The position numbers and the translations under genes were made by a program. A stretch of 64,000 nucleotides of DNA, from the NCBI GenBank assembly GCA_000004985.1, contig GG738879.1; one strand, given 5' to 3'. Source of the stretch: Naegleria gruberi (Eukaryota). Below, in pieces: positions 9,570 through 64,000 of this stretch. The notes below the pieces were generated by a model. It was not told the DNA's origin. It ran no database searches and was given only the letters and a program-made list of their open reading frames with translations. The first letter of the stretch is position 1. The number at the start of each line of letters is the position of its first letter.

Positions 9570-11576
9570 TTAGTCTGAAATTCCTTCATTCCTCTGCCGC
9601 ACTATTTCTTTAGCTTTCTTCACTCTCTTGCTAAGCTTTGCTTTCATCTTTGAAAGAAGCATAAATCTGTCTACAACTTTCATTTCACGACCAACAGTAA
9701 TAGCGCCAGCAATTTCTTGGTCTGTTGAAATTTCAATCTTATCAACTTGAGTAACAAATGGCCATTTACCATTCATTGTTATCCAAGCATGTTCCTTAAT
9801 CTCCTTAATTGTAATTCTTCTATGTGGATCCTTGCAGAATAACCTAGTTAATAAATCTTGCAGATCTGGCTCTATATTTTCAGGTATTTCTGGCTCGTCA
9901 TTAAGAATAGCATTATACATTCCAAGAATACCTGGTCCAAAAAATGGCAGTCTACCATACAGCATAACAAATAATGTAACACCTGCTGCCCAAATATCAG
10001 ATGCATAGCCACTGTACGATCCAACATGACAAGCTTCTGGCGAAAGGAAAGCCGGAGTACCGGGTGCTGTGTTAAAAGTATCATTGTCTCCTTCTAACAT
10101 TGAACTAACACCAAAATCTGTAATCTTTAATCTGTCATCCTTTGTTACTAACACATTTTCAGGCTTAATATCTCTATGTACAATTTTGTTTTCGTGCAAA
10201 TATTCTAATCCGCAAATAAGGTCTCGGTAATATCTTCTACACGTTTCTTCTGTAAAAGCTGGTCTATCGGTTTTATCTTTAGATATAATTTTCATTAAAC
10301 ATCCACTTTCAATATATTCAAAAACAAGGAACAGCTTATCAATCTTTGGATCGTCTATCACTTCATAAAGTTCCACGACATTTGGATGATGAAGTTTCTT
10401 AAGAATTGAAACTTCTTTCATCAATATCATTAAACTTGAATTATCCTTATCCTTAACTGGCCTTCCTAGCTTGTCCTTCTTTTTCAAATCTTTCAAAATG
10501 GACTTGTTAATAATTTTCAAAGCACATAATTCACCAGTATCACTCTTCTTACAAAGCTTAACTTTTCCATGCATACCTCTACCAATCTTTTTAATAACGA
10601 CATACTCATTGACAGTTTTCTTACCATCTTGATCTACACCTGTAGATAAAGTGGTTGTCATGTGAACTTGTCTCTTTGTTCTTGGTGAAGACCCTTCGGT
10701 TTCAGATCCACCAGTTGAAAGTGCACCTGAACTACTGTAACCTTCTTCATCAGAATAAGGTGAGAGCCCATTTGGAATATTCAACTTTGGCTCTTGTAGT
10801 ATAGTAGATGAAGCAGGATTTTCCTTTTCTTCCTTTCCAGTATCTTCTTGTTCTGGTTTATCATCTTCAATTTCAAACTTTTTCAAGCTCCTAGATTTTG
10901 GACTAGCAATATTTACAATTGATTTTCTATCATCTGCATCCTGACCATTATCAGAATCGATGAATTTATCTTTAGATATACTTCTATTCACTGAAGAAGC
11001 ATTAGATCGTTTCCTTCTTAATTTCTTGCCTGAATTCTTCATCGATCTTGTTGAGGTTCTTACAGGTTGTTCAATTTCCTCCGAAGAAGATGAAGAATGA
11101 GAAGCTATTGGATTACCAATAGCAAAATCATCCTTAGTGAATGTGAATGAGCTCGCCTGTTGTATTGTTTTATGAGACCAGAAACGTCTTAATTCCTGTG
11201 GCGATTCCGTTTGAACACCTTTATCTTGTGGAGGTCCTTTTGATATTAATTGTTGTAATAATTGCAATTGCTCAGAATTTATCATTACTAAAATATTTTC
11301 CAATCCAACAACCTCCTGATTTTGTTGAAGGTTAATATATTGTGAGCTTGAATTTGGTAAGTTACTATTTGTTGTGGGAAGTAAAAAAGAAGATGAAGAG
11401 GATTCATGTTGAGTTGATGCACTAATCCCCTTAGTCGGGTGATAACGATGAGAACCTCTCTCTGATGAATCATTATTTAGAAAAGGTTGGTTAAGTTGAA
11501 CGTAATCGTTGTCATCTTTAGCCTCCCCAGGAATAACACGATTAGAATGATGTGGAACACAGCAAGCTTGTCCCAT
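9570..11576 (-). CDS. Ca2+/calmodulin-dependent protein kinase kinase (CaMKK)-like Ser/Thr kinase with long Ser-rich N-terminal region
   Basis: Kinase domain IGRGMHGKVKL...HRDIKPENVLV...DFGVS...GTPAFLSPE with the Arg/Pro/Lys-rich insert after subdomain II typical of CaMKK; close to animal CaMKK by eye. First ATG of the ORF is MGQACCV; the track start upstream is a GTG codon. Single exon. Confidence 0.75.
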   Translation of the reverse strand: MGQACCVPHHSNRVIPGEAKDDNDYVQLNQPFLNNDSSERGSHRYHPTKGISASTQHESSSSSFLLPTTNSNLPNSSSQYINLQQNQEVVGLENILVMINSEQLQLLQQLISKGPPQDKGVQTESPQELRRFWSHKTIQQASSFTFTKDDFAIGNPIASHSSSSSEEIEQPVRTSTRSMKNSGKKLRRKRSNASSVNRSISKDKFIDSDNGQDADDRKSIVNIASPKSRSLKKFEIEDDKPEQEDTGKEEKENPASSTILQEPKLNIPNGLSPYSDEEGYSSSGALSTGGSETEGSSPRTKRQVHMTTTLSTGVDQDGKKTVNEYVVIKKIGRGMHGKVKLCKKSDTGELCALKIINKSILKDLKKKDKLGRPVKDKDNSSLMILMKEVSILKKLHHPNVVELYEVIDDPKIDKLFLVFEYIESGCLMKIISKDKTDRPAFTEETCRRYYRDLICGLEYLHENKIVHRDIKPENVLVTKDDRLKITDFGVSSMLEGDNDTFNTAPGTPAFLSPEACHVGSYSGYASDIWAAGVTLFVMLYGRLPFFGPGILGMYNAILNDEPEIPENIEPDLQDLLTRLFCKDPHRRITIKEIKEHAWITMNGKWPFVTQVDKIEISTDQEIAGAITVGREMKVVDRFMLLSKMKAKLSKRVKKAKEIVRQRNEGISD

Positions 11577-50449: not shown

Positions 50450-51222
50450 TACTTTGTGCAATCCAAACAAATAATTCGTTACTGAGTTCGATATTTTTTT
50501 AAAAAGGTGACTTTCATTGAAAAGGTGGTATGAAGGGATAACGCGTTATTGGAAGCTCAAAATTGAATAGTAATATTCCATGATCAACTCAACTCAAATG
50601 GTCACATTCAATATTTTCATTTCTCCCCACATTATTGGTTAATAATTAGTTGTATTGAATGAATATTGGTGAAAAAGTTCATAAGGAATGCAATAAAGAA
50701 ACTCAAATCCAATAAAGCTCTGATTGATCTCATAATTAGATTCTCCATTCTGCAGAATCTACTGATATGTTCTTCATTACCAAATATCTATCTTAAAATT
50801 CAATAATAATCAAATAGCAAACAAGGTAGTTGTTTGTCCAAATTCAATTCTGAATTGTGATTCATTCACAACGCATCAAAAAAGATCCAATCATATGAAA
50901 ACCAGCATGTTTGTATGATGAAATTCCTCATTCGTAAAAAGCATCTTCTTGTGCGTGTCAGTAAACAAGCAAATTCAATGGAGTAAACGGCGCTTGAGAA
51001 TAACTTCGGGGCACTTGTGGGACTATAAAACTCGACACCCAGAAATACAATGCACTCATATTTAGATAAACAAAAAGAAACAAAATCAATTCAGCTAACA
51101 ACTGGTGTTTTATTATCCAACTCACACATTTGTTACTGCTGCTTATCTAGCTTGCGTACCGCCCCACTAAAATAGATTACAACAAATCTTTGAAAAACAA
51201 TCGACAACAAGGCTTTTGAGAG
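50450..51222. promoter_or_regulatory. 770-nt divergent intergenic region containing a short GC-richer island (about 50930..51010)
   Basis: No ORF; the segment ggagtaaacggcgcttgagaataacttcggggcacttgtgggac stands out from the surrounding A+T-rich sequence. Confidence 0.25.
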
Positions 51223-52310
51223 ATGACAGTCACAATCCTTAAGGTTAAATTTGTCTCTGAAGAAACATTATTTGAATATGGATCACTTCCAATTGAGTTT
51301 GATATTTGTTGTTCCTCACCTAAATCTTCATCATCATCTTCAAATTCCAAATCAAAGACAAACTCAAAGAGAAAACAACAAGTCAAATGGTCTGAAGAAG
51401 ATGATAGAATTTTGAGAATGTATGCAGAGAAGGAATATTCATGGAAGGTAGGTATCAATTTATAATACTCAATATCTCATCATCATCACAATAATGTTAT
51501 TAATTTAAAATTCAAATAATGATTAGGAAATTGCAACCAACTTTTTAAATGATAAATTTACTCCACAACAACTTCATCAAAGATGGAAGAGAGTTTTAAA
51601 TGATAGTATTAATAGAGAGCCATGGTCTGAAGAAGAAGACAAGGCCATTATTGAATATGTTAAGAAGGTATGGTATCACTTTTTCATCTCTTAACTTAAA
51701 TTAAAAACTAATATAGTATGGTTGTACTTGGTCAAAATTGAGAACTCTGCTTGGAACTCAAAGAACTGACACAATGGTCAGACAACGTTGGTTAAAGATT
51801 ACAAATGGTCAAGGTCTAGTTGGTGTTGCATCAAAGCATAATCAACCAACTTCATTGGCATCACTCTCTAACTCTTCTACTAATAGTGAATCTAGTCCTA
51901 ATACTATTTCTCAACCACCTAATAATATTCAATCCATTGTAAATAGCTTCAATGAAGAAAATGATGTCTTCGATTTTATTAAGAAACATCAACTTATTAC
52001 TCCACCTCAACAAGTTCAACAACCAGTTATTGAAAAGCAACCAATTAAGAAACCTGTTCAACCAATATCACTTGATAGTTTAACATGTGATGAAGAATTA
52101 TTTGATCAGAGATCAGCTCCAACTGAACCAAAGTCAACTTGTCCACCATCCATTAAGGATATTGATCCAGCCATAACTATTGACTCAACAGTTTCTTCTT
52201 CTTTAGGGACTTTATTAGATAATAATTATGATTTGATGGATTTCCATTCATCACTTCAAACCAATTTGGAAAGAGAATGGTTGAACCAAATCTTTTCACA
52301 AGATTTCTAA
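51223..52310 (+). CDS. Myb/SANT DNA-binding protein (two Myb repeats); 3 exons (51223..51447, 51527..51667, 51717..52310)
   Basis: WSEEDDRILRMY...W...LHQRWKRVLN and WSEEEDKAIIEYVKKYGCTWSKLRTLLGTQRTDTMVRQRWLKI repeats. Introns 79 nt (GTAGGT) and 49 nt (GTATGG) restore the frame into track ORF 51738... Confidence 0.7.
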
Positions 52311-52535
52311 CTGTATTATAACTCAACTCTTATATAATAAAAACATTTTTGTAAAAAGAAGACTTGTTCAACTTGTAATAATACAACCCCAGATAATGAA
52401 ATCACTCGATATATGGTTTCAATCATGACTGAAAACAAGCGAATTGGTTTGATTTCCCTTTTGAAATTTCATGAAATGAAAAAATGGCGCCAAACAACGT
52501 ACAGTAATGAATAATCAAACACAAGTTTAAAAAAA

Positions 52536-53837
52536 ATGAGACGAGTTAATAACCCTAATCAAAGTCCCGAAAACAAGAAGTCGAAAAACTTCCAGGAAAA
52601 GGTAATTATTCTTAGCTATTGTACAACTTGATAATCCTGTTAGTTTAAGGATAAAATTAGTGTAACAAATAAGGATGGAACAAGAACCAAACTTTCAAAT
52701 GGAGAAGTGGAAAACAAATTTAAACCAACAATAATTCAAAAAACCTCTCCATCTAAACCACCAAATCCTTTTAATTCTCAACAAAAATCACAAGAGGTTC
52801 CCACACCTTTCAAGCCACTTTACAAAATTCCAAACTCTCCAATACAAATAGCATCAAATAAGGATAATTCAAAGGAAACAAATATTTTAATAGTGAACCA
52901 TACAAACCATGATCGACATGTTGTTGGTGATTCTGTTCCATCAACAGCTTGCGTATCGGAAATATCTGTTTCACCAGAAACAAATAATCATCAACCTGTA
53001 GTACATCATATCGTCTCTACTACATCATCGAGATTTTCTTCAAGAGAAAGTTCAGCCTCTTCAAGAAATAGAAAGAAACCAGTTATTACAGCTCAGCAAT
53101 TTAAGAATATGGTGGAAGAAAAAAAGAAGGACAATGATATGTTAATTCCAAAAATTGAATCTCCACCTTCTCCTCAACAACCAAAAGTAATTACTCCTCC
53201 AGAGAAGAAAATTAATGTTAGATTAATTCATGAATATGAAAATCAAGAGAATGAATCATTTATTTCCTCAATTGATCATGTCAGCCCTATCAATAAGCAG
53301 AAAAATGTTGGAGCATATTCTGATATTTATGGAATGCCAAAAAAGAAGAATGAAGCTGACTATGATGTGGAATCTGTTCAAAAAGATCCAGGATACGCCA
53401 AATCTAAAAAGGAAATCACTTACAAACCATATTCAATGAATGATTACAACAAAATCAAATCTCAAGGTAATATTAAATTAGGGGGTTTGGGAGCTGATTT
53501 ACAAAATGAACAATTGTTGGAAAAGAAGGAAAAAGCGTCCAAGATGAAAGAGTACGCAAAAGAAATATCTCAACTCAATAATAATAAGATTAAGAAACAA
53601 AAGACACCAACGACAAGCCAACCAACCCCTCAAGAAATTGAAGCTGCCAAACTGGCAAGTGTAAGAGAGAAAGCGCTCGAATTTGCATCAAAAATACCAA
53701 AGCCAAAACCTAAAAAGAAGTACTCTGGCTCAGCAACAGCCGATGCCGAACCAGAACCATTATCTGAGTTGGAAATGTTGGAATTACAACATGAAAGAGA
53801 CAGAGAATGGTTGAAAAAAGAGTTTGCTACTCGGTAA
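52536..53837 (+). CDS. Hypothetical Lys/Pro-rich protein; 5' end uncertain (ATG at 52536 plus a 47-nt GTAATT...TTTAAG intron, or an internal ATG near 52674)
   Basis: 376-aa track ORF begins at a GTG; upstream AAAAAAATG at 52536 followed by a plausible short intron. I could not fix the frame to the nucleotide here. Confidence 0.4.
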
Positions 53838-54093
53838 TAATAAAAAAGCAATACCAAAACTATTTACTGGAATAGAGCAGTACCAACTAAAATAGAGAAG
53901 TTGGGAAAGAAAGGAATTTTAGTTTTGTGTTTTTTAAAATGTATCTCTTATTATACACAACGAATACGCATTAGTAAATGCAGATATTGGTTGTTTATAA
54001 TAAGTAATATCATTTTAAACGACACAAAACTAAAATTCCTTGCTTTCACCATATTTGATTGAAAGTAATTTCTCTCATTTGCTGGTACTGTTT

Positions 54094-55893
54094 CTATTTT
54101 TTTGACAAAGGATTGTAAAGGTAAGGAGGTATAGCTTTTTTGAGAGCCCCTATTTGGTCTAGTGAAATGCATGATTTTGTACAAGCATTTTTTTTTGCTT
54201 CCTTTTTTGTTTTTCCATCTCCAATTTGATTAGTAAGTTTTAAAGCAGACAGATCAATTTCACAACGAAAACTTGTAATATGTGATGGACCGTAGCATGT
54301 TTCAATATATGTAGGTTTCATATTTTGTCCAAATGTTTGACTCCAAAAATATTCCAATATTTGAACGGACCTACTTTCGTCAAACTCAGGCTCATCAGAA
54401 ATTGTAGGATTAATAGGAATAAACTGGTTTGTTTGAGGTTGCTGAACCAAATTCTTAGCTAGAAATGATGCATAGGATTTAATATGTTTTCTTCCCTTAA
54501 TATGATCTTGAAGAGCATCCACGCTATTACAAAACATATCACAAGCAGTACAAATATAACCATCCTGTTTTCCAATCCTTTGTATAGTAACAACTCCCTC
54601 TGAAATTAATTGTTGAATTGATGGTTGTTCAACATTGTCAACAAAAGGAGGAGAAGTACCTTTAGAATAATTCTCACTAGGTACTGATGATGATGGATGT
54701 GAGGGTGGTGGTGATGTATATGTGGAATATGAAGATATTGTTGGTGGTGGTGATGTATATTGAGCATTAATTTGTTCTCTATTAACATTTTTCAAATGCT
54801 GTTTTCCATTGAAATGAGTTAATAAAACATCAGGTCCATTACAATCCACATTACACAAAGTGCAAGAGTAAATTTCCAATGTTCCAACAACAGTCTTAGA
54901 ATAATATTTAGCATGAATTCTAAATGCTTCAGGAATAGTAGGTGGTTGAGCCTTAGGGGGATAATTATTTTGAATTCCAGGAATTTGTGGATTGGAAAAA
55001 GGTGGAGTGTGTTCTCTCTGTAGTTCTTCAGGGCTAGTACTGCTCTGAATTGGATTTTGAATTGGATTAGAAGAGCTATACGGTGTAAAAGCTGATTCTT
55101 GATAGAATGTTTTCTGCTTTTTTTGATGTTTAGATCCTCTTACGTGTTCATCATATTTCTCTTTACTATTGCAACTAATAGAACAAAGGCTACAATACCA
55201 ATTATTCAAATGTTGAGAGACTGATGGATTATTACTCAAATTTAAACCATTAAAATTACTGATAAGATCATCCTCTTGACTACTATAAGAATTTGTAGAA
55301 TTTGTAGAATGTGTAGAATGAGTAGAATGTGTAGAGTTTGAATAATTTGTTCGACTATCATTAGGATAATATTGATGGGATTGATGATGATGATAAGGTT
55401 CTTGAATCCTTGTATTTCCACCCATCAAATAGTTCCTACTATCAGTATATACAGGCTTTGTTTCTGGATGATAATTCTGTGTTGGATAAAAAGGTGTATA
55501 ATGAATATTACTACTAGTTGGAATATTTGAATATCCTAATTGAGTATTACTATTTGTATATTGATGAGGATTTGTATTGTTGTTATTGCTTGCAGTCGGA
55601 AATGGTTTTGAAATTATTTGATCGTTTAGAGGAAGGTTTGTTGGATGTTTTTGAATATTTAAATGCTTAATAGGTTCAGAATTCTTAATATTTAAAGATG
55701 ATATGGGTATGTTATTACTATGTTGAATAAAAGATAATGATGCATTCGTTGTTGTTGGTGGAGGCTGTATAGTTTGACTTGTTGGTTTCTGTTTAGCCTC
55801 AGTTTTCCTGATATGTTCAGAACTTTTGAGATGTTCTCTATATTCTGAAGAGGAGTTTGTTGAGTAATTGCATGTATTACATGTGAATGGCAT
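54094..55893 (-). CDS. dsRNA-binding zinc-finger protein: four U1/matrin (JAZ)-type C2H2 fingers, Q/N/H/S/T low-complexity core and C-terminal dsRBM
   Basis: Fingers CNTCNY...EHLKSSEH, YCSLCSISCNSKEKYDEHVRGSKHQKK, YSCTLCNVDCNGPDVLLTHFNGKQH, YICTACDMFCNSVDALQDHIKGRKH. C-terminal ...LEYFWSQ...PTYIETCYGPSHITSFRCEIDL...GDGKTKKEAKKNACTKS fits the dsRBM consensus. Confidence 0.65.
   Translation of the reverse strand: MPFTCNTCNYSTNSSSEYREHLKSSEHIRKTEAKQKPTSQTIQPPPTTTNASLSFIQHSNNIPISSLNIKNSEPIKHLNIQKHPTNLPLNDQIISKPFPTASNNNNTNPHQYTNSNTQLGYSNIPTSSNIHYTPFYPTQNYHPETKPVYTDSRNYLMGGNTRIQEPYHHHQSHQYYPNDSRTNYSNSTHSTHSTHSTNSTNSYSSQEDDLISNFNGLNLSNNPSVSQHLNNWYCSLCSISCNSKEKYDEHVRGSKHQKKQKTFYQESAFTPYSSSNPIQNPIQSSTSPEELQREHTPPFSNPQIPGIQNNYPPKAQPPTIPEAFRIHAKYYSKTVVGTLEIYSCTLCNVDCNGPDVLLTHFNGKQHLKNVNREQINAQYTSPPPTISSYSTYTSPPPSHPSSSVPSENYSKGTSPPFVDNVEQPSIQQLISEGVVTIQRIGKQDGYICTACDMFCNSVDALQDHIKGRKHIKSYASFLAKNLVQQPQTNQFIPINPTISDEPEFDESRSVQILEYFWSQTFGQNMKPTYIETCYGPSHITSFRCEIDLSALKLTNQIGDGKTKKEAKKNACTKSCISLDQIGALKKAIPPYLYNPLSKK
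55290..55345. repeat. Imperfect 9-bp tandem repeat (gtagaatgt)n inside the zinc-finger gene, encoding (S/T-H)n
   Basis: gtagaatttgtagaatgtgtagaatgagtagaatgtgtagagtttg; minus strand reads STHSTHSTHSTNSTNS. Confidence 0.5.
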
Positions 55894-56567
55894 TTTGTTG
55901 AAACTTTAATAACTTGGGAATTCTCAAATTACTTGTTTTAATGTTTTTTAATCTATTAATAATCAGACACTAGTGCAACCAGAGCTTTACTTGGATCGGA
56001 TTGATTTCGGATGCTACACTGTTGTAAGATATTAATATTTGGTTGTTCCAATGTATTGTTGGAAATGCGGAAAGAAGAGGGTCACTCTTCAACTGCAATA
56101 ATACTTATTTTTTTTAAAGGTGTTTTTAGAGATTGAAAGATTAAATATATTATACTAATAACAAGTATATTATTGAACAATTAAATAATTTTATATTTAT
56201 TATGATGATTAAAATTATATGTTCCAATATTGTTATTGTCGTTCATTGAAGGTGTAGTCAAATATAATTATTTGATTTTTAAATCATGATGAATGTTTTG
56301 TGAGTTGTCCCATTGGAAGCTCTTTGGTCAAACAAAGCCATTGAGTACTTGTTGGTTAGGTTAAAAGCCAAGTATCAATAATATCCGAGAAGTACGTATC
56401 TGCTACATTATTTTTTGCAAGGTAATTGTTGGGTAAAAATTTTGATTGTAAAATAACAGGCAACCACACATTTTAAAGTTTTGTTGAAAAAAAAATACAC
56501 TAAATGTAAGTCTAGTCATCCTCATCTTTGCTTACGCTTCAAATCTTATTACTTTTCGTACAGCAAA

Positions 56568-57026
56568 ATGGGCCGTATGCATGGTGCCGGTAACGGTAAA
56601 TCTCAATCTGTCATTCCATACAGAAGATCTCCACCAACATGGTTGAAGGTTACTGCTGAAGAAGTTGAAGACAAGATTGTCAAGCTCGCCAGAAAGGGTT
56701 ACACTCCATCACAAATTGGTGCTATCTTGAGAGATTCCGACGGTATTGGTAGAGTCAAGTCTGTCACTGGTAAGAAGATCTTGAGAATGCTCAAGTCTAA
56801 TGGTTTGGCCCCAGAAATCCCAGAAGATTTGTACCAATTGATCAAGAAGGCTGTTGGTATCAGAAAGCACTTGGAAAAGACCAGAAAGGATAGAAAGGCT
56901 AAGTACCAATTGATTCTCTGTGAATCTAAGGTCCACAGACTTTCAAGATACTACAAGAGCACTAAGGTTTTGGCTCCAAACTGGAAGTATGAAAGCGCAA
57001 CTGCTGAAGCTTTGATCAATGCTTAA
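56568..57026 (+). CDS. RPS13: 40S ribosomal protein S13 (uS15)
   Basis: [27 protein letters not shown]...[20 protein letters not shown] over full length; GC3-biased yeast-like codons typical of highly expressed genes. An upstream GTAAGT...CGTACAG element (about 56507..56563) may be a 5'UTR intron. The track start at 56481 is upstream of the real ATG. Confidence 0.9.
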
Positions 57027-57179
57027 ATTTTAATCACTATAAAAAAACAAATATTTAAAATTCAACAATTTACAAATTTATGCAATTTTTCAGAATGTTA
57101 TTTCTTTTTGAACTTATTTTTACCTTCACATCTTGAAAGATTTCGACTTAGTTTGTGTTACAACCAAGAAATGGATTTA

Positions 57180-60100
57180 TTAAAGATATTTGACTAATAA
57201 CTTGACATCATGAACTTGTTTGTTAATTCTATAAAATGGTCTTAATGTTCTACCCAATAATTCAAGTTGTTCATCTTCTCCTTGTTTGAAAATGAAATAC
57301 TTGTAACAATCAATTGGATTCCATTTCAAATTCAAATCACAAATTAATTGAGATTCTTCCAAGGTTGATTCATTGAATGACTTAGTAATTTCAACTTGTT
57401 CAATTGGTTTCAAGTTCAAATCTAACAATTTTTCACCAATATTCAAATAACCTAATTTCATTGCATAATAATCTTCTTCATTACTATCAATAATGGAATG
57501 TTCATCAGAAGGTGATGGAGTTGAATCACTTTGAATACAATCAATATAAATATTTGTAATTTCATCATCGAATTCAATAATATTATTCAAAGAATAAGTT
57601 TTTAATATCCAACCACCATTCATCATTTCAGATTTAACATTTTGATCCATTTTACTCAAATCAATTAAACCTAATTTTACAGTTTCAATTAATAAATGTA
57701 AAGAAGAATATTTTTCATTAAATTCATTACTATATTTAAATGCATATTGAATATTTGTTATATTATTATTTAAATTATTATTTAAATTATTTAATTTAAT
57801 ACTAGTTTTAAATAATTTAAATCTTGTTAATTTTACTTCATCTTGATTAAATTTTCCATAAAATTCTAAACAATTTCCACCTAAAAAGGAATCTAAATAA
57901 TTAAAATTCCAATTAATTGAATATTCTTGTCCAATATTTAAAATTTTATAATTTCTAAAATTAGGTAATAAATCTTGTTCAGAAATATCATTCCATTTTA
58001 ATACATTTTGATTATTTCCATAAATGTAATAATTTAATCCAACACCTGAATTAAAAAATGTTGAAAATAAATTTTTAATTAATTTTTCATTTAAATAATT
58101 TGAATTATTTTCATTTTTACTTTTTAATTTTAAATTTAAAGAACAATTTGAAATTCTTGATCCAAAATTTCCCGCCCAATTTTCAACATCCTTTCCACCA
58201 TGTTCCCAAATTATTGTTTTAATTAAATTTATATTTTTTAAAATAAAATTAAAATTAATACATTTCCAATTAGAGTTACAAATAATTTCACCAGAATTAA
58301 ATTCTTTAATAATTTTATCATTTTTATCTAAAAATTTAATTTTTAAATAAAATAAATCTTGACAATTTGGTTCAGTTCCTTTTATCCAACATTTTGCATT
58401 TAAAATTAAATTATTTAAATTATTATTATTTCCATTTATATCAATTTCATTTAATATAAAAGGTAAATTAATTAATTGTTCCATTTTTGACCAATTAAAA
58501 GATGAAATAAAAGATTTTGATTGATTAAAATCATTATTTAAAGATTTAATCCAATTTCCATTTATATTCCAACCTTCAAATTCATTTAATTGTCCATTTC
58601 CATTTTTTAATAATTCAATAATTTTATAATTTCCATTCCAAAATAAATTTTCAATATTTTCATATTCATTTCTAATTAAATTTAAATTTTCAATATTTTC
58701 TAAATTTGTAAAATTATTAAAATAATTTTCATAAATAAAACCTGGAGCAAATAAGGCAATAGATGTTTCATATTTGTTAATTTCATTTAATGCTATTTTA
58801 GTATTAAATTGTCCACCACCATATTGTCCTCTACCAAATATATCTATACCTGTAAATATTTTATATTTATTTAATTTTTTATTTAATTTTAAATTATTTT
58901 CTATTAAAATATTTTGTAATAGATTTAAATTATTTAAATTATTATTATTTTGTAAATTATTTTCTAATAAATTAATAAAATTATTTAAATTAATTAAAGA
59001 ATTATTTAACATTTCAGGTTTCCAATTATAATTTAAAAAAATTCCATCACTTTCATTTAAAAAAATTAAATTTTTTTCATTTAATTCATTTTGCCATTTT
59101 AATTCTCCATTTGGATAAATAATTGAATCATACCAAATTATTTTAGAATTTTTAATTAATTCTTTACATTTTAATTTTAAATATTTAATAAAATTAATTA
59201 ATTTTAAACATAAATCTTGATTTAAATTACATTCTATATTTAGAAACCATCCATCAAATTTATAATAAATTGCTAAATTTATCAAATAATCAGCAAATTG
59301 TTCATAATTTCCATTTAAAATTTTAGAAATTTCTTTACTTCCTTCATCCCATTCAAAAATTAAATTTCCTAAAACTAAAATTCCATTTTTATGTGCAATT
59401 TCAGTCCAACCAACAGGTGGTATTGTAATTCTATTTAATATTTAATATATTTAATATTATATAATATTTAATATTTAAAATAAATTTAAAAAATAAAAAA
59501 AACAAACCTTTCATGACTAAAATAAATAAAAATATCAACAAATTGCCAATAATTAAAATTAAAAGTTAAAAAATCATTTCCACTTTGAATAAATTTATCA
59601 TTTAAATATCCACCTTTCATATCATGACATAAAATTACTTTTTGTCTATTTTTAGTAAAATTATTTTTAAAATTAATTTTAGCAATATTTAAATCATCTT
59701 TAAAATTAAATTCTTGATTAATTGAATAAATTGGTTCTGAAATTATTTTAAATGGTTCATTAGATATTTCTAAAGATGGAAATGAATAATTAAAATTAAA
59801 ATTAAAAATTTCATTTGAAAAATAAAAAAATAAATTTTGTAAAATTCCTTTAAATGGTTTTGAATTTTCTAATTTTGGTGGAATTATAAATGGATTAAAA
59901 TTATTTATAATTGAATTTAAATTATTAAAATTTAATTCTTGTTCATATTCTAATTTATTATATTTAGTAATTTTAATTAATAATTTATTTTTAAATATTA
60001 ATTGAATATGATACCATTTATATAAATTAAAATTATAATTAATTATTAAATCATTAATTATTAATTTGTTATTTAAATATGTTGATAATTTAATTAATAA

Positions 60101-60343
60101 ATCTCCTTTTTTTAAAATTGTAAAATAATTTGAATTTAATAATTCTAAAAAGTAAATTGAAAAGGAAATATTTAATGTAGATTCAGAATTAGAAATTATT
60201 ATTGGTGCATGAATTTTTAAATTTTCATTATTATTTGTAATAAAATTACATGATGGAAGTAAATTAATTAAATTTGATGGTAATGAAAGTTGTAGATGTG
60301 GATCGGATAGATGATCACTATCATTACTAATACTTTCATTCAT
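57180..60343 (-). CDS. Cytosolic endo-beta-N-acetylglucosaminidase (GH85, ENGase) with very large Asn-rich insertions; 2 exons complement(57180..59430, 59508..60343)
   Basis: GH85 core ...KVILCHDMKGGYLNDKFIQSGNDF...NYWQFVDIFIYFSHER | ITIPPVGWTEIAHKNGILVLGNLIFEWDEG...FDGWFLNIE is split by a 77-nt GTTTGT...AATAG intron. About 1028 aa. Coding DNA is about 80% A+T with NNLNNL-type runs. Confidence 0.75.
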
Positions 60344-60576
60344 TTTATTAGTATTATTATTATTAACAACTTGGTGATGAATGTGAAGAGGTTCACCAGC
60401 AAGCAAATCGAGAGATGATGTAAATTTTTTAGGCTTGATCTTTCAATACAATTTCAGCCTTGTTTTCGTAAGTACCCGGCAGAGAAGATAAAATTCAGTG
60501 TCAAACATAATTGGCGCCAATCAAACTACAACAACAACAATAACACTAAGAAGATTAAAAACAAAGAATTATAAAA

Positions 60577-61038
60577 ATGGCTGACGAAGTAACACAAAAG
60601 AAATTGAAGGAGGCTTTCAGATTATTTGAACGTGAGGGGTGTATTGAAGTGGATGATTTAGGTATTATTATGAGACACTTGAATCTTAATCCTACGGAAA
60701 AACAAATTTCTGCATTAAAAACTGAAATGGGTCCAAATGTTATTGATTACAATGTTTTTGAAGCAGTGATGAGTAAGATTGTCCTTACATCAACCTATGA
60801 TGGTGCAACTTTAACTTTGGACACTGAAGATCAATTATTAAGAGCTTTTGAAATTTTGGATCCGGAGAGGAATGGTTTAATTCCTTCAGAGAAATTGGTT
60901 CAATTACTCAAATCACAAGGAGAACCAATGACTGAAGAGGAAATTAATGAATTCCTTCAATTTGCTCAATCCAAAGATTCAGCAATCATTCGATATGAAG
61001 AGTATGTCAATTTGTTATGTAGTCATTTAAAGAAATAA
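60577..61038 (+). CDS. Calmodulin-like EF-hand protein (153 aa)
   Basis: EF-hand pairs (EAFRLFEREGCIEVDDLG...; LRAFEILDPERNGLIPSEKL...); ATAAAAATGG start; ordinary composition, unlike neighbours. Confidence 0.75.
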   Translation: MADEVTQKKLKEAFRLFEREGCIEVDDLGIIMRHLNLNPTEKQISALKTEMGPNVIDYNVFEAVMSKIVLTSTYDGATLTLDTEDQLLRAFEILDPERNGLIPSEKLVQLLKSQGEPMTEEEINEFLQFAQSKDSAIIRYEEYVNLLCSHLKK

Positions 61039-61073
61039 ACTATTATTATGATTATAAAATTTTTCTAGATGAT

Positions 61074-61394
61074 TTATTGAGTTTCACGCAAACGTCTAAT
61101 AGTAGATCTAACAGTAGCAGCAGCGACAGTGTTCAAAGTCCAGGCACCACCAGCTTGAGTCTTATTACACTTCTTGCAGTTCCAGATACCAACAGCAACT
61201 CTCTTAACGCTGTGCTTACCACAGAATTGACAGAAGTGCTTTTGCTTCTTGGCAATTTCGTATTTCTTGGCTCTCTTTCTCAAGTTAGCACCATATCTAG
61301 TACCGAATTTACCGCAAATACCTGCTTTCTTTGTTCTCTTGGCCTGTTATTGGTGTTACTATTTAAAAAAATAATGAGTACGAAAACTTACCAT
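61074..61394 (-). CDS. RPL37A: 60S ribosomal protein L37a (eL43); 2 exons complement(61074..61343, 61392..61394)
   Basis: ATG | 48-nt intron (GTAAGT...AACAG) | [89 protein letters not shown]; zinc ribbon CxxC...CxxC intact. Intron-after-ATG arrangement is common for ribosomal-protein genes. Confidence 0.85.
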
Positions 61395-61720
61395 CGTTAT
61401 GTTTTTGACTTTTTTTTTCAACAAAAATTTTTAAAACTTGTGGTTGTCTAGGCACTACATACTTTACAATGAAAATAATCTTCAGCAGCTTCAAAAATAT
61501 TCATCAAACAAATGTGAAGCAGTCATAACGGACATTCAGATAATCGGATCACTCAAGGAAACCTCTTGTGCCATTCATCATATTAACTATTATGTGCCAT
61601 TCATCATAACAATTACACTCTTCTTAAAACAAGAACAATGTTACTTTGAATCAAAATTAATTTACTTTAAAAAGAATTCACAGAACAGAATAATACACTT
61701 AAACCATTCCTTTTCTTCTT

Positions 61721-61960
61721 CTACTTTTTCTTAAAGAATGAACTGATAGATTGTTGTTTTGTACCACTATTACTAGCCTTGACCACAGACTTTTTAGTTG
61801 TTGCTGCTGTTTCCTTCTTCTTTTTAGATGCATCAGTTGTTGTTGCTGCTGTTGGTGCTTCGTCATCCTTCATGGCATTATCATGATCTTCATCATCCGA
61901 AGATAATTCGTAGTACACTATCATCATCATCAACAACATCAACAATATCATCACTTCCAT
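61721..61960 (-). CDS. Small acidic/basic ORF ending in a canonical PIP box (QQSISSFFKKK*); overlaps the 5' end of the Cdc6/Orc1 ORF antisense
   Basis: Minus-strand ...SSDDEDHDNAMKDDEAPTAATTTDASKKKKETAATTKKSVVKASNSGTKQQSISSFFKKK* is the only protein-like reading of 61721..61900 (other frames are stop-ridden). Possible starts at 61960 or the internal Met at 61873. Confidence 0.35.
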   Translation of the reverse strand: MEVMILLMLLMMMIVYYELSSDDEDHDNAMKDDEAPTAATTTDASKKKKETAATTKKSVVKASNSGTKQQSISSFFKKK

Positions 61961-63354
61961 GTAGAGAAAAGGAAATTGAACAAATTAAAACATCACTATC
62001 AAATTGTATACAATTATCATGTCCTAAAACAATGTACATTGCAGGAGAACCAGGTACAGGTAAAACAGCCTGTATTAAACAAGTATTAAATGATTTGGAA
62101 AATGAATATAATAATACATCATCAAATAATAGTAATAATAATAATAATAATAGTAAAAGTAATAGTAATAATAATAATATACATAAATTTAAATATATAT
62201 TTATTAATGCAATGAAATTAAATCAACCATTTAAAGCCTTTGAAATTATCTATGATCAAGTTATTAAAAATTCCAATAATAAATTAAAAATCAAGCCTAA
62301 AAAAGCGCAATATAAACCACGTATAGAAAATTATTTTAAAAATTCCAAAACATTTAACAAACGTAAATATTTAATTATAATAATAGATGAAATGGATTTT
62401 TTTGTAACAAAAACATCTAATAATACTAAAAATATACATTTATTATATGATTTAGTTGATATAACAAGAGATTCTAATAGTAAATTATGTATAATTGGAA
62501 TTAGTAATACAGTTTCATTATTAGATCAATTAAATAGTAAAATTAAAAGTAGATTTGATGAAATGATAACTTTTTTTCCATATGAAAATGATCAAATTAG
62601 AACAATAATTGAAAGTAAAATATTAACAAATTATGATAATTATTTTGAAAAGGGTGCAATTAAAATGATTGGTTCTTTAATTGCTAGAAAAGCAGGTGAT
62701 ATACGTCAAGCTATTGATATTATTAAAAGATGTATTGAAATTTATTCTATAAAAGGAAATTTACAAGAAAAGAAAATTGATTCTTTATTTGTTAAATCAA
62801 TTGCAACTGATTTTACAGATAGATATCCAATTTCACAATTAAGTATTTATCATAAAATATTTTTATATTGTACTATTTTGGAATATGAAATGAAATTAAA
62901 AAATTTAAAAGAAAATCAAAATTTAAATAATTATGAATCAAATCCAAATAATTTATTATTTGAACGTATTGTAATGAGATTTCAAAATTTATTAGCAATG
63001 TTTGAAAATTCAATGAATATAAATAGTATTACTACTACTACTACCACTTTCAATAATAGTAATAATAATAATTTAAATAATAATAATAATAGTACTTCCA
63101 ATAATAATAGTAATAATTCAATGAATAATAATAATTTAAATAATTCCAATAATATAAAATATTCATTTATAAATCCAAGTTTAGATCAATTACAATTAAT
63201 AATGTTTACATTATGTGAATTGGGAATAATTTCAATTGATAATGATAAAAGAGAACGTTTACCAATTATACATTTTGAAACTGAATATCAATTATTATTA
63301 TTTAATTTAGAACAAGATGATGAAATGAAACCAATTATGAAATTAAATAAATAA
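61828..63354 (+). CDS. Cdc6/Orc1-family AAA+ replication initiator with Asn-rich insertions and C-terminal winged helix
   Basis: LPCREKE motif, Walker A GEPGTGKT, Walker B IIIIDEMD, sensor and C-terminal region; about 80% A+T with long (AAT)n Asn runs. The first 25 residues of the track ORF (MHQLLLLLLVLRHPSWHYHDLHH) look like antisense noise of the overlapping minus-strand ORF, so the true 5' end is unresolved. Confidence 0.7.
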   Translation: MHQLLLLLLVLRHPSWHYHDLHHPKIIRSTLSSSSTTSTISSLPCREKEIEQIKTSLSNCIQLSCPKTMYIAGEPGTGKTACIKQVLNDLENEYNNTSSNNSNNNNNNSKSNSNNNNIHKFKYIFINAMKLNQPFKAFEIIYDQVIKNSNNKLKIKPKKAQYKPRIENYFKNSKTFNKRKYLIIIIDEMDFFVTKTSNNTKNIHLLYDLVDITRDSNSKLCIIGISNTVSLLDQLNSKIKSRFDEMITFFPYENDQIRTIIESKILTNYDNYFEKGAIKMIGSLIARKAGDIRQAIDIIKRCIEIYSIKGNLQEKKIDSLFVKSIATDFTDRYPISQLSIYHKIFLYCTILEYEMKLKNLKENQNLNNYESNPNNLLFERIVMRFQNLLAMFENSMNINSITTTTTTFNNSNNNNLNNNNNSTSNNNSNNSMNNNNLNNSNNIKYSFINPSLDQLQLIMFTLCELGIISIDNDKRERLPIIHFETEYQLLLFNLEQDDEMKPIMKLNK

Positions 63355-63405
63355 TATTTTTTGAACATCACATTAATATAATTTATTTGTTCTTTTTGTA
63401 ATAAA

Positions 63406-64000
63406 TTATAATTCATCTTTATTTTCTAAAGCAATAATTGAATTTGTCTCATCAGATAATTTCCATTCCATATTATTTTTATCATTTTTATCATTTTTAT
63501 CATTTCCATTATTTTCATTTTCATTATTTTCATTTCCATTTTCATTATTATTTAAATTAGATGAAGGTAATAAAAGTTTAAAAGGAATGTCTAAACATAA
63601 ATGTTCAATCATTTCTCTTCTTTGTGGATCATGTTCTAATTGTTGATATTTATAAATTCTTAAAGTAGCTTCATGTGTACCATTTAAAATGGAATATAAA
63701 GGTCTTTCTATATTAATATGATATGTTTTGTTTAAATTTATAATTGGACAATTTGAATCTTGTAATTTACAATTAATTTCTAAATTATTTTTAGATTGGT
63801 TTCCTAAAAAAGAACCACAACAAATATCATATGGTCCTTTATATTTAATTTTTTGACCTGTTTCTTCATGCCATAATTCTAAATTATAAAATAAATGATT
63901 AGTTTCCATAATTGGTTCATTAAATTTAATATCCATTTCAATTTTAACACCAGGTGTATTATATCTAGTAGGTACAATTGTTAAATGTGAAGTAATTAAT
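63406..64000 (-). CDS. Hypothetical protein, 3' part only (gene continues beyond window end); very A+T-rich with N/E/K-rich tail
   Basis: Minus-strand reading stays open through 64000 (...YNTPGVKIEMDIKFNEPIMETNHLFYNLELWHEETGQKIKYKGPYDICCG...). Confidence 0.45.
   Translation of the reverse strand, partial: LITSHLTIVPTRYNTPGVKIEMDIKFNEPIMETNHLFYNLELWHEETGQKIKYKGPYDICCGSFLGNQSKNNLEINCKLQDSNCPIINLNKTYHINIERPLYSILNGTHEATLRIYKYQQLEHDPQRREMIEHLCLDIPFKLLLPSSNLNNNENGNENNENENNGNDKNDKNDKNNMEWKLSDETNSIIALENKDEL

What the first reader, a model, noticed from the sequence alone, without database searches (positions are those of the whole stretch)
57100..64000. Abrupt shift to extreme A+T richness and Asn-rich low complexity in a subset of genes at the 3' end of the window
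Over about 57 kb the genes have similar moderate composition (by eye roughly two-thirds A+T) and use codons such as GAG, AGG and CCG. The ENGase gene (57180..60343), the Cdc6/Orc1 gene (61828..63354) and the terminal partial gene (63406..) are instead about 80% A+T by eye. They use almost exclusively A/T-ending codons and carry long (AAT)n / NNLNNL insertions that inflate ENGase to about 1028 aa. Interleaved with them, RPS13, the EF-hand gene and RPL37A keep ordinary or even GC3-biased codon usage. The contrast is therefore gene-by-gene rather than a simple isochore boundary. Possible explanations are expression-linked codon bias with runaway Asn-repeat expansion in low-expression genes, a recombination or subtelomeric regime, or an assembly join.
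Basis: seen in the sequence. Interest (0 to 1): 0.5.

Follow-up and report, generated by a model that had tools for sequence, protein, structure and literature searches.

The report
Extreme AT-rich gene tracts, Naegleria gruberi
Two stretches of a few kilobases in the Naegleria gruberi genome have fallen to about 15-20% G+C, rewriting the codons and many amino acids of three conserved, still-intact genes while neighbouring genes and the same genes in sister species stay ordinary; the pattern is real and not an assembly error, but its cause is not established.

Summary
The window is Naegleria gruberi NEG-M (exact protein matches). The composition step is real. Bases 1-57 kb are 33% G+C, with no 300-bp window below 23%. 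Bases 57.67-60.28 kb and 61.95-64.0 kb are 15.5% and 19.5%. ENGase, ORC1/Cdc6 and a KDEL-ending gene have GC3 of 0.02-0.09, against 0.26 for 20 neighbouring genes (p=2e-92). Their intron and spacer are 8% G+C.

It is not a chimeric join. Gene order is conserved in N. fowleri, N. lovaniensis and a third lineage. A phase-2 intron is shared with that lineage. Independent metagenome contigs from a 97-99% identical strain reach or cross two tract edges. Orthologues elsewhere have GC3 of 0.24-0.31, so the shift is specific to N. gruberi. The proteins are intact and evolve at ordinary rates. ENGase is not inflated: 1028 aa against 1126-1175.

Best reading: an in-situ, locus-restricted GC-to-AT substitution bias over whole transcription units, under purifying selection. 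The cause is inferred, not shown. RIP, viral origin and translational codon bias each fail a test. Side finding: Pol32 is truncated and fused to Cdc6.

The parts
56568..57026 (+). RPS13 gene. It flanks tract A on the left, is convergent with ENGase, and has ordinary-to-high GC3 (0.45).
   Evidence: Pfam S13_N/S15. Exact match to N. gruberi EFC42489. GC3.
57180..60343 (-). ENGase gene (GH85 + F-box-associated domain), 1028 aa. Exon 2 is 57180-59430 (including the stop), the intron is 59431-59507 (77 nt, GT..AG, phase 2, G+C 0.04), and exon 1 is 59508-60343.
   Evidence: Pfam PF03644 E=6.8e-67 and PF04300. Splice solution. The orthologue of N. fowleri FDP41_010016 sits at the syntenic position. 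The N-x-E motif in FDGWFLNIE is intact (read from the alignment).
57183..57690 (-). Last ~170 codons of ENGase. This is the gradient zone, where GC3 rises 0.12 -> 0.17 -> 0.22 toward RPS13.
   Evidence: GC3 is 30/168 here against 34/860 in the rest, p=3e-9. The same C-terminal GC3 rise is seen in N. fowleri, N. lovaniensis and the third lineage.
57672..60276 (.). AT tract A: G+C about 0.155, GC3 0.00-0.07, CpG o/e 0.07.
   Evidence: Change points and G+C (0.155 measured over 57690-60343). Profiles. Dinucleotides. The right edge is crossed by independent contig L023.
60344..61920 (.). Island of ordinary composition (G+C 0.33). It holds the ENGase/EF-hand intergenic region, the EF-hand gene (60577-61038 +), RPL37A (exon 2 61074-61343, intron 61344-61391, ATG 61392-61394, - strand), a 320-bp spacer, and the Pol32 remnant.
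   Evidence: EF-hand = EFC42490. Contig L023 covers 60053-61825 at 97% identity.
61721..61909 (-). Remnant of DNA polymerase delta subunit Pol32/Cdc27. Only the last ~62 codons are present, with the C-terminal PIP box QQSISSFF. GC3 is 0.30.
   Evidence: Pfam PF09507 positions 395-443 of 443, E=1e-5. tblastn to N. fowleri and N. lovaniensis Pol32 C-termini. Coordinates. No other Pol32 homology in the window.
61910..61920 (.). Junction of 11 bp between the Pol32 remnant and the Cdc6 homology. About 1.5 kb found in the relatives is absent here: Pol32 codons 1 to ~365, the shared promoter, and the first ~25-38 Cdc6 codons.
61921..63354 (+). ORC1/Cdc6 gene as far as it is homologous to orthologues. 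The annotated model EFC42491 starts at 61828 and reads antisense through the Pol32 tail. GC3 is 0.07. Asn-rich expansions lie at about 62108-62186 and 63046-63168.
   Evidence: Pfam AAA / Cdc6 lid. 100% match to N. gruberi ORC1/CDC6. Alignment to orthologues. Tandem repeats.
61945..64000 (.). AT tract B: G+C 0.195. It includes the 51-bp Cdc6/KDEL-gene spacer (63355-63405) and runs off the window.
63406..64000 (-). 3' part of a conserved gene of unknown family whose product ends in KDEL. The orthologues are 364-366 aa. GC3 is 0.05.
   Evidence: ORF. No Pfam hit. tblastn gives 60-65% identity to syntenic genes in N. fowleri and N. lovaniensis.

Best explanation
These are genuine N. gruberi chromosomal segments. 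They were inherited vertically and evolved in place. After the N. gruberi lineage split from the other sampled Naegleria lineages, they came under a locus-restricted, very strong GC-to-AT substitution bias. The bias acts on everything in the tract: synonymous sites, the intron, the 3' spacer, and every amino-acid position that tolerates change (Val->Ile, Arg->Lys, Ala loss; Asn, Ile and Leu gain, with Phe and Tyr slightly up; AAT-repeat growth in loops). Purifying selection keeps the three proteins intact.

The tracts coincide with whole transcription units: ENGase alone, and the convergent Cdc6/KDEL-gene pair. They are interrupted by an island around the EF-hand and RPL37A genes and by a ~0.5-kb gradient next to RPS13.

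My proposed mechanism is inferred, not shown. In Naegleria a GC-favouring process accompanies active transcription units. It could be transcription-coupled repair or GC-biased gene conversion. It shows up as the conserved GC3 rise in the ENGase 3' end beside RPS13. In N. gruberi this locus lies in weakly transcribed or repressed chromatin, where that process is missing and cytosine deamination dominates. Deamination may be enhanced by the context-independent 5mC that marks N. gruberi heterochromatin. Composition therefore runs down to a mutational equilibrium near 5% GC at free sites.
For: Shown:
- Real and vertical. The window's proteins are exact matches to N. gruberi. Synteny holds in three other lineages. 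A phase-2 ENGase intron is shared with the third lineage. Independent contigs reach or cross two edges.
- Lineage-specific. At aligned codons GC3 is 0.02-0.07 in N. gruberi against 0.24-0.31 in orthologues. Control genes differ far less.
- Regional, not codon-level. The intron plus spacer are 0.078 G+C against 0.306 for non-coding DNA elsewhere, p=7e-10.
- Selection persists. The chance of no stop in 860 codons is about 1e-45. The GH85 N-x-E motif and the Walker A motif are intact (read from the sequences). Lineage-unique amino-acid changes are comparable with the sister lineage: 78 vs 52, 28 vs 29, 11 vs 25. Between strains there are 5 synonymous and 2 non-synonymous SNPs and in-frame indels.
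- Old and saturated. Four-fold sites keep no memory of the outgroup state.
- A GC3 rise in the last 180 ENGase codons beside RPS13 is present in all four lineages, p from 0.008 to 2e-8.

From the literature: N. gruberi has 447 hypermethylated, H3K9me3/H3K27me3-marked regions with 5mC in all dinucleotide contexts (PMC12344493).
Against: No expression, methylation or chromatin data for this locus could be consulted.

ORC1/Cdc6 was the only N. gruberi homologue returned. It should be needed in dividing cells, which sits badly with a silent domain.

About 30 neighbouring genes, surely including weakly expressed ones, keep GC3 of at least 0.15.

Intergenic DNA elsewhere is 31% G+C, so the tracts lie far beyond the local apparent neutral level.

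Divergence between the two strains is not raised in the ~290 bp of tract that can be compared.

N. fowleri is reported to carry 5mC too, yet its orthologues are ordinary.

Only one locus was seen, and tract B runs off the window.
Confidence: 0.5

Rival explanations
1. Recombination cold spot. GC content at free sites in N. gruberi is held near 25-30% by GC-biased gene conversion. These tracts have not recombined for a long time and have decayed to the true mutational equilibrium. This is a variant of the best explanation in which recombination, not transcription or chromatin, is the variable.
For: The shift hits coding and non-coding sites alike. There is a gradient over ~0.5 kb at the left edge, about the length of a conversion tract. 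Four-fold sites are saturated.
Against: The other two edges fall within about 100-200 bp, and a 1.6-kb normal island sits between the tracts. This is finer than known recombination landscapes. No recombination data exist, and sex in Naegleria is only inferred (own knowledge).
Confidence: 0.2
2. Expression-linked translational codon bias with runaway Asn-repeat expansion in weakly expressed genes.
For: RPS13 and RPL37A have the highest GC3 (0.39-0.45), and the AT genes are plausibly low-abundance. The same three genes are at the low end of GC3 in the other species.
Against: The intron and spacer are 8% G+C. GC3 changes within the ENGase ORF. Thirty ordinary genes nearby never fall below GC3 0.15. 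Amino-acid composition shifts at first and second codon positions too, with GC12 0.19-0.31 against 0.30-0.40 in orthologues. ENGase is shorter, not longer, than its orthologues.
Confidence: 0.08
3. Replacement by homologous DNA from an extremely AT-rich donor, either an unknown Naegleria relative by introgression or a giant virus that had captured host genes. The tract edges would then be recombination breakpoints.
For: The structure is mosaic, with some sharp edges. The composition is more extreme than anything else in the window. Mimivirids are reported to use Naegleria-like codons in exaggerated form (PMC11702301).
Against: No relatives in 2.9 million viral contigs for any of the three genes. 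A spliceosomal intron at the same site and phase as in a sister lineage. Gene order and orientation are kept. Protein distances fit vertical descent. Homologous exchange between DNA of 15% and 33% G+C at saturated divergence is implausible (inference).
Confidence: 0.07
4. AT-richness is itself selected or driven by a chromosomal function that overlaps genes in a compact genome. An example is a centromere-linked GC-poor trough, as in some yeasts, or a replication origin next to Cdc6.
For: The G+C drop is kilobase-scale and unmatched in 57 kb of flank. Tract B is open-ended. Precedents exist for GC3 troughs in genes near centromeres in Yarrowia and Candida lusitaniae (own knowledge, not checked here).
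Against: No gene-free core is visible. There are two tracts separated by active ribosomal-protein genes. The orthologous regions of N. fowleri and N. lovaniensis show only slight dips. Nothing is known of Naegleria centromeres (one search found no paper).
Confidence: 0.08
5. Assembly artefact: a chimeric join or a contaminant such as Dictyostelium.
For: The composition looks Dictyostelium-like. The Pol32/Cdc6 junction at 61910-61920 is abnormal and is not covered by independent contigs.
Against: The best hits of the AT genes are Naegleria orthologues at syntenic positions. ENGase reads in frame across the left edge. Independent contigs span 56352-57686 and 60053-61825.
Confidence: 0.02

Closest known systems
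AT-rich isochores made by repeat-induced point mutation (RIP) in fungi such as Leptosphaeria maculans and Neurospora crassa (own knowledge)
   Same: AT-rich blocks with defined edges embedded in a genome of otherwise uniform composition. The cause there is a local mutational process, not selection on codons.
   Different: The RIP dinucleotide signature is absent: TpA/ApT is 0.78-0.81 and (CpA+TpG)/(ApC+GpT) is 1.6-2.1. The tracts here are single-copy conserved genes with intact ORFs, not repeats riddled with stops. They are 2-3 kb, not tens of kb. A<->T changes are saturated as well.
Genome-wide AT pressure with Asn-rich low complexity in Dictyostelium discoideum and Plasmodium falciparum (own knowledge)
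   Same: The coding consequences match: A/T-ending codons, enrichment of Asn, Ile, Leu, Phe and Tyr (Lys barely changes), loss of Ala, Arg and Val, and (AAT)n growth in loops.
   Different: Here the pressure is confined to about 2.6 kb and at least 2 kb inside a 33% G+C genome. It is specific to one species among four lineages compared. At GC3 of about 0.05 it appears more extreme than the averages I recall for those genomes.
GC-poor troughs at centromeres of Yarrowia lipolytica, Candida lusitaniae and Scheffersomyces stipitis (Lynch et al. 2010, recalled, not checked)
   Same: A local fall in GC3 that affects functional genes through a regional process.
   Different: Whether there is one per chromosome is unknown. 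No non-coding core is seen. The fall is a step or short gradient, not a trough of tens of kb. No centromere data exist for Naegleria.
Low-GC outlier chromosome regions of Mamiellales (Ostreococcus, Micromonas) and AT-rich subtelomeric isochores of Plasmodium vivax (own knowledge)
   Same: Vertically inherited genes within one genome that follow a second compositional and codon-usage regime.
   Different: Those domains span hundreds of kb and differ by 5-15 points of G+C. Here the scale is that of single transcription units, and the difference is a five-fold drop in GC3.

Membership tests
RIP-type AT-rich block | Dinucleotide bias: TpA/ApT above about 0.89 and (CpA+TpG)/(ApC+GpT) below about 1.03 | tested here: not met
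   Tract A gives 0.78 and 2.12. Tract B gives 0.81 and 1.57. The normal region gives 0.75 and 1.40.
RIP-type AT-rich block | Targets duplicated sequence and leaves premature stop codons | tested here: not met
   The genes are single-copy at conserved syntenic sites. ORFs of 1028 and about 470 codons are intact, and the chance of no stop in 860 codons is about 1e-45.
Chimeric assembly or contaminant DNA | Break of synteny or reading frame at the composition step, with no independent support | tested here: not met
   Synteny holds in three lineages. ENGase is in frame across 57672. Independent contigs L003 and L023 span 56352-57686 and 60053-61825. The 61910-61920 junction itself is not independently covered.
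Translational (expression-linked) codon bias | Bias restricted to synonymous coding sites and uniform along a gene | tested here: not met
   The intron plus spacer are 0.078 G+C against 0.306 elsewhere. GC3 is 0.04 in ENGase codons 1-860 against 0.18 in 861-1028, p=3e-9. GC1 and GC2 are also lowered.
Horizontally acquired or endogenised viral island | No orthologue at the syntenic site in relatives; closest homologues viral or foreign; no host-type introns | tested here: not met
   Orthologues are syntenic. No viral relatives were found. A shared phase-2 intron is present.
Isochore or large compositional domain | Homogeneous composition over tens to hundreds of kb | tested here: inconclusive
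   Tract A is 2.6 kb and bounded on both sides. Tract B is at least 2.06 kb and runs off the window at 64000. The sequence beyond could not be fetched.
Centromeric GC-poor trough | One per chromosome, coinciding with CenH3 binding | not testable with these tools
   Only 64 kb of the genome is available, and no ChIP data.
5mC/heterochromatin-driven GC decay | The tract coincides with a hypermethylated, H3K9me3/H3K27me3-marked, transcriptionally silent region | not testable with these tools
   Such regions exist in N. gruberi (PMC12344493), but the paper's supplements held as text list no gene identifiers. CpG o/e is 0.07 in tract A against 0.39 in the flank, which is only suggestive.
GH85 endo-beta-N-acetylglucosaminidase (ENGase) | GH85 catalytic domain with the N-x-E catalytic motif | tested here: met
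   PF03644 E=6.8e-67, plus PF04300 FBA. FDGWFLNIE is conserved in the alignment.
ORC1/Cdc6 AAA+ ATPase | Walker A and B motifs and the Cdc6/ORC lid domain | tested here: met
   PF00004 and PF22606. GEPGTGKT and IIDEMD are present in the sequence (read). The N-terminal ~25-38 residues and the promoter seen in relatives are missing.

The most novel reading that the evidence does not exclude
Naegleria gruberi has a previously undescribed, locus-restricted GC-to-AT substitution regime. It might be driven by context-independent cytosine methylation in heterochromatin, or be centromere-linked. It pushes sole-copy conserved genes, including its only detectable ORC1/Cdc6, to GC3 of about 0.05 and remodels their amino-acid composition while they stay functional. 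Its edges are set at the scale of single transcription units.
Probability: 0.35. Interest if true: 0.7.

Novelty: new variant of a known kind. Interest (0 to 1): 0.55.

Why it matters
Intragenomic compositional heterogeneity is usually studied at scales of 100 kb or more, where mutation bias, biased gene conversion and selection are hard to separate. This locus offers a cleaner case. A five-fold drop in GC3 occurs within a few hundred bases, inside conserved single-copy genes. Ordinary orthologues in three sister lineages serve as controls, and a conserved GC3 gradient lies beside a ribosomal-protein gene.

If the tracts match silent or methylated chromatin, they would give a direct read-out of how chromatin state shapes long-term mutation in a deep-branching eukaryote. 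They would also show how far protein sequences can be pushed by mutation pressure without loss of function.

There are practical consequences too. Such tracts break short-read assemblies: both independent contigs stop at or within ~0.2 kb of tract A's edges. They also seem to defeat gene annotation, since no matching ENGase model was found for N. gruberi.

Tried and rejected
1. Contaminant or chimera: rejected by exact N. gruberi protein matches, synteny and independent contigs.

2. Viral origin: three scans of viral contigs found no relative.

3. RIP: the indices are not met.

4. A recent C->T burst: four-fold sites show A/T randomised irrespective of the outgroup base, so no transition signature can be recovered.

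5. Looking for closer N. gruberi-group ENGase loci in JGI metagenomes: only distant relatives at 29-52% identity in the best segment were found.

6. Extending beyond 64 kb and finding the N. gruberi scaffold itself: the NCBI scaffold is not in the contig index, and the W. magna locus is not on record.

7. Looking for the ENGase, spliced RPL37A and Pol32-remnant models in the protein collection: none is present as an exact sequence.

8. Rfam and tRNA scans of the region: nothing found.

9. Literature searches for AT-rich tracts, centromeres, GC3 or Asn-rich proteins in N. gruberi: nothing relevant to nuclear tracts.

10. Searching the methylome paper's supplements for locus tags: none listed.

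Full report
SOURCE AND OBSERVATION

Six complete ORFs of the window are exact matches to annotated proteins of Naegleria gruberi NEG-M on one 384,281-bp scaffold. They include proteasome alpha EFC42556, RPS13 EFC42489 and a zinc-finger/dsRBD protein EFC42564. The EF-hand gene is EFC42490 and the Cdc6 ORF is EFC42491, annotated 'ORC1/CDC6'.

The composition step is real and large.
- From 1 to 57 kb the G+C of 1-kb bins is 0.28-0.36.
- In that stretch the mean is 0.330, the SD of 300-bp windows is 0.031, and no window falls below 0.23.
- Bases 57690-60343 are 0.155, bases 61945-64000 are 0.195, and the island 60344-61944 is 0.333.
- Likelihood change points fall at 57672, 60276 and 62073.

All 30 long ORFs before 57 kb have GC3 of 0.15-0.32, and RPS13 has 0.43. 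The ENGase exons, Cdc6 and the terminal gene have 0.05-0.09. Pooled, GC3 is 0.051 against 0.256, p=2e-92. Two-fold codons end in C or G in 0.8-5% of cases against 29%. AAA:AAG is 127:5 against 624:439. Asn rises from 6.1% to 17.6%, while Val, Arg and Ala fall three- to four-fold in ENGase (two- to five-fold over the pooled tracts).

ANATOMY

ENGase is a two-exon gene of 1028 aa (60343..59508 and 59430..57183, 77-nt GT..AG intron). It has GH85 and F-box-associated domains. GC3 is 0.00-0.07 over codons 1-860. It then rises through 0.12, 0.17 and 0.22 in the last three 60-codon bins toward the convergent RPS13 gene. So the left edge of tract A lies inside the gene and is a ~0.5-kb gradient. On the other side, GC3 stays low right up to the ENGase start codon, and G+C returns to 0.33 in the promoter region.

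Tract B begins with the Cdc6 coding sequence. It includes the 51-bp spacer and the 3' part of a conserved gene whose product ends in KDEL, and it runs off the window.

Non-coding DNA inside the tracts (intron plus spacer, 128 nt) is 0.078 G+C. DNA outside long ORFs in the first 57 kb is 0.306, p=7e-10. The shift is therefore regional and not a matter of codon choice.

NOT AN ARTEFACT, NOT FOREIGN

The best hits of the AT-rich ENGase and Cdc6 are Naegleria orthologues. The gene order is ZnF-dsRBD, RPS13, ENGase, EF-hand, RPL37A, Pol32/Cdc27, Cdc6, then the 364-366-aa gene. Orientations match. This order is found in N. fowleri (L001), in N. lovaniensis (L007), and in a third Naegleria-like lineage recovered from two metagenomes (L005/L024 and L006/L008).

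ENGase aligns with its orthologues through both the AT-rich part and the C-terminal part. A phase-2 intron interrupting the Arg codon of SH(E/H)R|I(T/S)IPP is present in N. gruberi (77 nt, 4% G+C) and in the third lineage (45 nt, 38% G+C). It is absent from N. fowleri and N. lovaniensis. This argues for vertical descent and against replacement through a virus or cDNA.

Three contigs from an independent metagenome assembly (ENA ERZ929261) belong to a closely related strain.
- L004 is 99% identical to 50702-56188.
- L003 is 97% identical to 56352-57686.
- L023 is 97% identical to 60053-61825.

L003 ends, and L023 begins, at or just inside tract A. That is what short-read assembly does in extremely AT-rich DNA.

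No relatives of the three genes occur in the viral contig collection.

LINEAGE SPECIFICITY AND SELECTION

At aligned codons, GC3 in N. gruberi against N. fowleri / N. lovaniensis is:
- ENGase: 0.02-0.07 against 0.25-0.31
- Cdc6: 0.07 against 0.24-0.29
- KDEL gene: 0.05 against 0.30-0.31

For control genes the difference is modest: JHY 0.26-0.27 against 0.30-0.33, ZnF 0.17 against 0.28-0.30, RPS13 0.45 against 0.43-0.47. First and second codon positions drop too, 0.19-0.31 against 0.30-0.40. The third lineage, with overall G+C of 0.40, has ENGase at 0.35-0.47 and Cdc6 at about 0.33-0.41.

Protein evolution is not unusually fast. Lineage-unique substitutions in N. gruberi against the third lineage are 78 vs 52 (ENGase), 28 vs 29 (Cdc6) and 11 vs 25 (KDEL gene). 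The control ZnF gives 44 vs 35.

With this composition the chance of 860 stop-free codons is about 1e-45. The GH85 N-x-E motif and the Cdc6 Walker motifs are intact (read from the sequences). Between the two N. gruberi strains, ENGase carries 5 synonymous and 2 conservative non-synonymous SNPs and two 3-bp indels.

Four-fold sites are saturated. The N. gruberi base is A or T whatever the outgroups carry (A->A 33, A->T 27, T->A 17, T->T 17, C->A 9, C->T 7). The shift is therefore old, and no transition-only signature survives. RIP indices are not met. CpG o/e is 0.07 in tract A against 0.39 in the flank.

ENGase is not inflated by Asn insertions. At 1028 aa it is shorter than the N. fowleri (1175 aa) and N. 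lovaniensis (1126 aa) proteins. Its NNLNNL stretches replace linkers that are already variable and often longer in the orthologues.

Cdc6 does carry net expansions at two loops, (AAT)n-like arrays at 62108-62186 and 63046-63168. Willaertia magna has Asn-rich inserts at the same two loops.

A CONSERVED CLUE

In all four lineages the last 180 codons of ENGase, which abut the convergent RPS13 gene, have higher GC3 than the rest.
- N. gruberi: 0.167 vs 0.040
- N. lovaniensis: 0.428 vs 0.273
- N. fowleri: 0.456 vs 0.261
- third lineage: 0.472 vs 0.358

P values run from 0.008 to 2e-8. Translation of ENGase cannot differ between the two ends of one mRNA. So Naegleria has some regional GC-favouring process around highly active genes. 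The N. gruberi tracts look like the same landscape with the baseline collapsed.

MECHANISM (INFERRED)

The tracts equal transcription units minus the zones influenced by RPS13, EF-hand and RPL37A. I therefore favour an in-situ, locus-restricted GC->AT substitution bias in weakly transcribed or repressed chromatin. Protein function is kept by purifying selection.

N. gruberi is known to have 447 hypermethylated regions with 5mC in all dinucleotide contexts. They coincide with H3K9me3 and H3K27me3 and contain mostly silent genes (PMC12344493). Such methylation would accelerate C->T decay without a CpG-only signature.

This link is not shown for this locus, and several things weigh against it:
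- ORC1/Cdc6 was the only N. gruberi homologue returned and should be needed in cycling cells.
- N. fowleri is said to carry methylation too.
- Thirty neighbouring genes and all intergenic DNA stay at or above 23% G+C.

A recombination cold spot without GC-biased conversion is the main alternative of the same kind. Introgression or a viral shuttle, a selected chromosomal function (centromere or origin) and translational codon bias are less likely, for the reasons listed under the rivals.

SIDE FINDING

Only the last ~62 codons of Pol32/Cdc27 (61721-61909, - strand, ending in the PIP box QQSISSFFKKK) are present. They abut, across 11 bp, the Ser-rich run that precedes LPCREKE in Cdc6.

Relative to N. 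lovaniensis and the third lineage, about 1.5 kb is missing. The missing part covers Pol32 codons 1 to ~365, the shared divergent promoter with a GGCGGG (E2F-like) motif, and the first ~25-38 Cdc6 codons. The annotated ORC1/CDC6 model starts at an ATG (61828) that reads antisense through the Pol32 tail.

The junction coincides with the left edge of tract B. Contig L023 stops at 61825, before reaching it. So this may be a real deletion, one haplotype, or a clone or assembly deletion in AT-rich DNA. I could not decide between these.

NOVELTY

I found no paper describing nuclear AT-rich tracts in N. gruberi in the searchable library. That library is incomplete, and the 2010 genome paper was not searched there.

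Compositional domains are a known kind of feature. This instance is unusual in three ways: its scale (single transcription units), its extremity (GC3 about 0.05 in a 33% G+C genome), and the quality of its controls (syntenic, ordinary orthologues in three lineages).

Noticed in passing
window 61721-61953: Pol32/Cdc27 is reduced to its last ~62 codons (the PIP box is kept). It is fused across 11 bp (61910-61920) to Cdc6, which lacks its first ~25-38 codons and the shared promoter. About 1.5 kb present in N. lovaniensis and a third lineage is absent. The annotated ORC1/CDC6 model (EFC42491) starts at 61828, antisense to the Pol32 tail. This could be a real deletion, one haplotype, or an assembly or clone deletion.
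   Followed up: partly
window 57183-57720; L001 12990-13525; L007 3792-4330; L005 2891-3430: The last 180 codons of ENGase, next to the convergent RPS13 gene, have significantly higher GC3 than the rest of the gene in all four Naegleria lineages. This implies a regional GC-favouring effect around a highly expressed gene, not translational selection.
   Followed up: yes
window 57180-60343 and 61074-61394: No N. gruberi protein matching the 1028-aa ENGase (or its 701-aa ORF) was returned or found by exact look-up. The spliced 90-aa RPL37A was not found either. Both genes appear to be missing or mis-modelled in the public annotation.
   Followed up: partly
window 59431-59507; L024 about 150-200: A phase-2 intron in ENGase is shared by N. 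gruberi and the third lineage and absent in N. fowleri and N. lovaniensis. It is a usable marker for relationships within Naegleria.
   Followed up: yes
L001 4640-5404: N. fowleri has a 254-aa ORF between Pol32 and Cdc6 that looks, by eye, like a non-LTR retroelement fragment (RNase H-like and zinc-binding motifs). It is absent from the other lineages.
   Followed up: no
L007 about 9800-9830; L024 about 3610-3630: The Pol32-Cdc6 divergent intergenic region of N. lovaniensis and the third lineage contains a GGCGGG(AA) motif resembling an E2F site. This region is missing in the N. gruberi assembly.
   Followed up: no
L003 (window 56352-57686) and L023 (window 60053-61825): Independent short-read metagenome contigs of an N. 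gruberi-like strain stop at or within ~0.2 kb of tract A's two edges; L023's other end stops ~120 bp short of tract B. Such tracts may therefore be systematically lost from short-read assemblies.
   Followed up: partly
window 1-57000: CpG is depleted across the ordinary part of the window (o/e 0.39) while GpC is near expectation (0.84). This is compatible with some cytosine methylation or a context-dependent mutation bias genome-wide.
   Followed up: no
P0049 (Willaertia magna Cdc6) vs window 62108-62186 and 63046-63168: W. magna Cdc6 carries Asn-rich insertions at the same two loops as N. gruberi Cdc6, although the two proteins are only 43% identical. These loops are hotspots for low-complexity expansion.
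   Followed up: no
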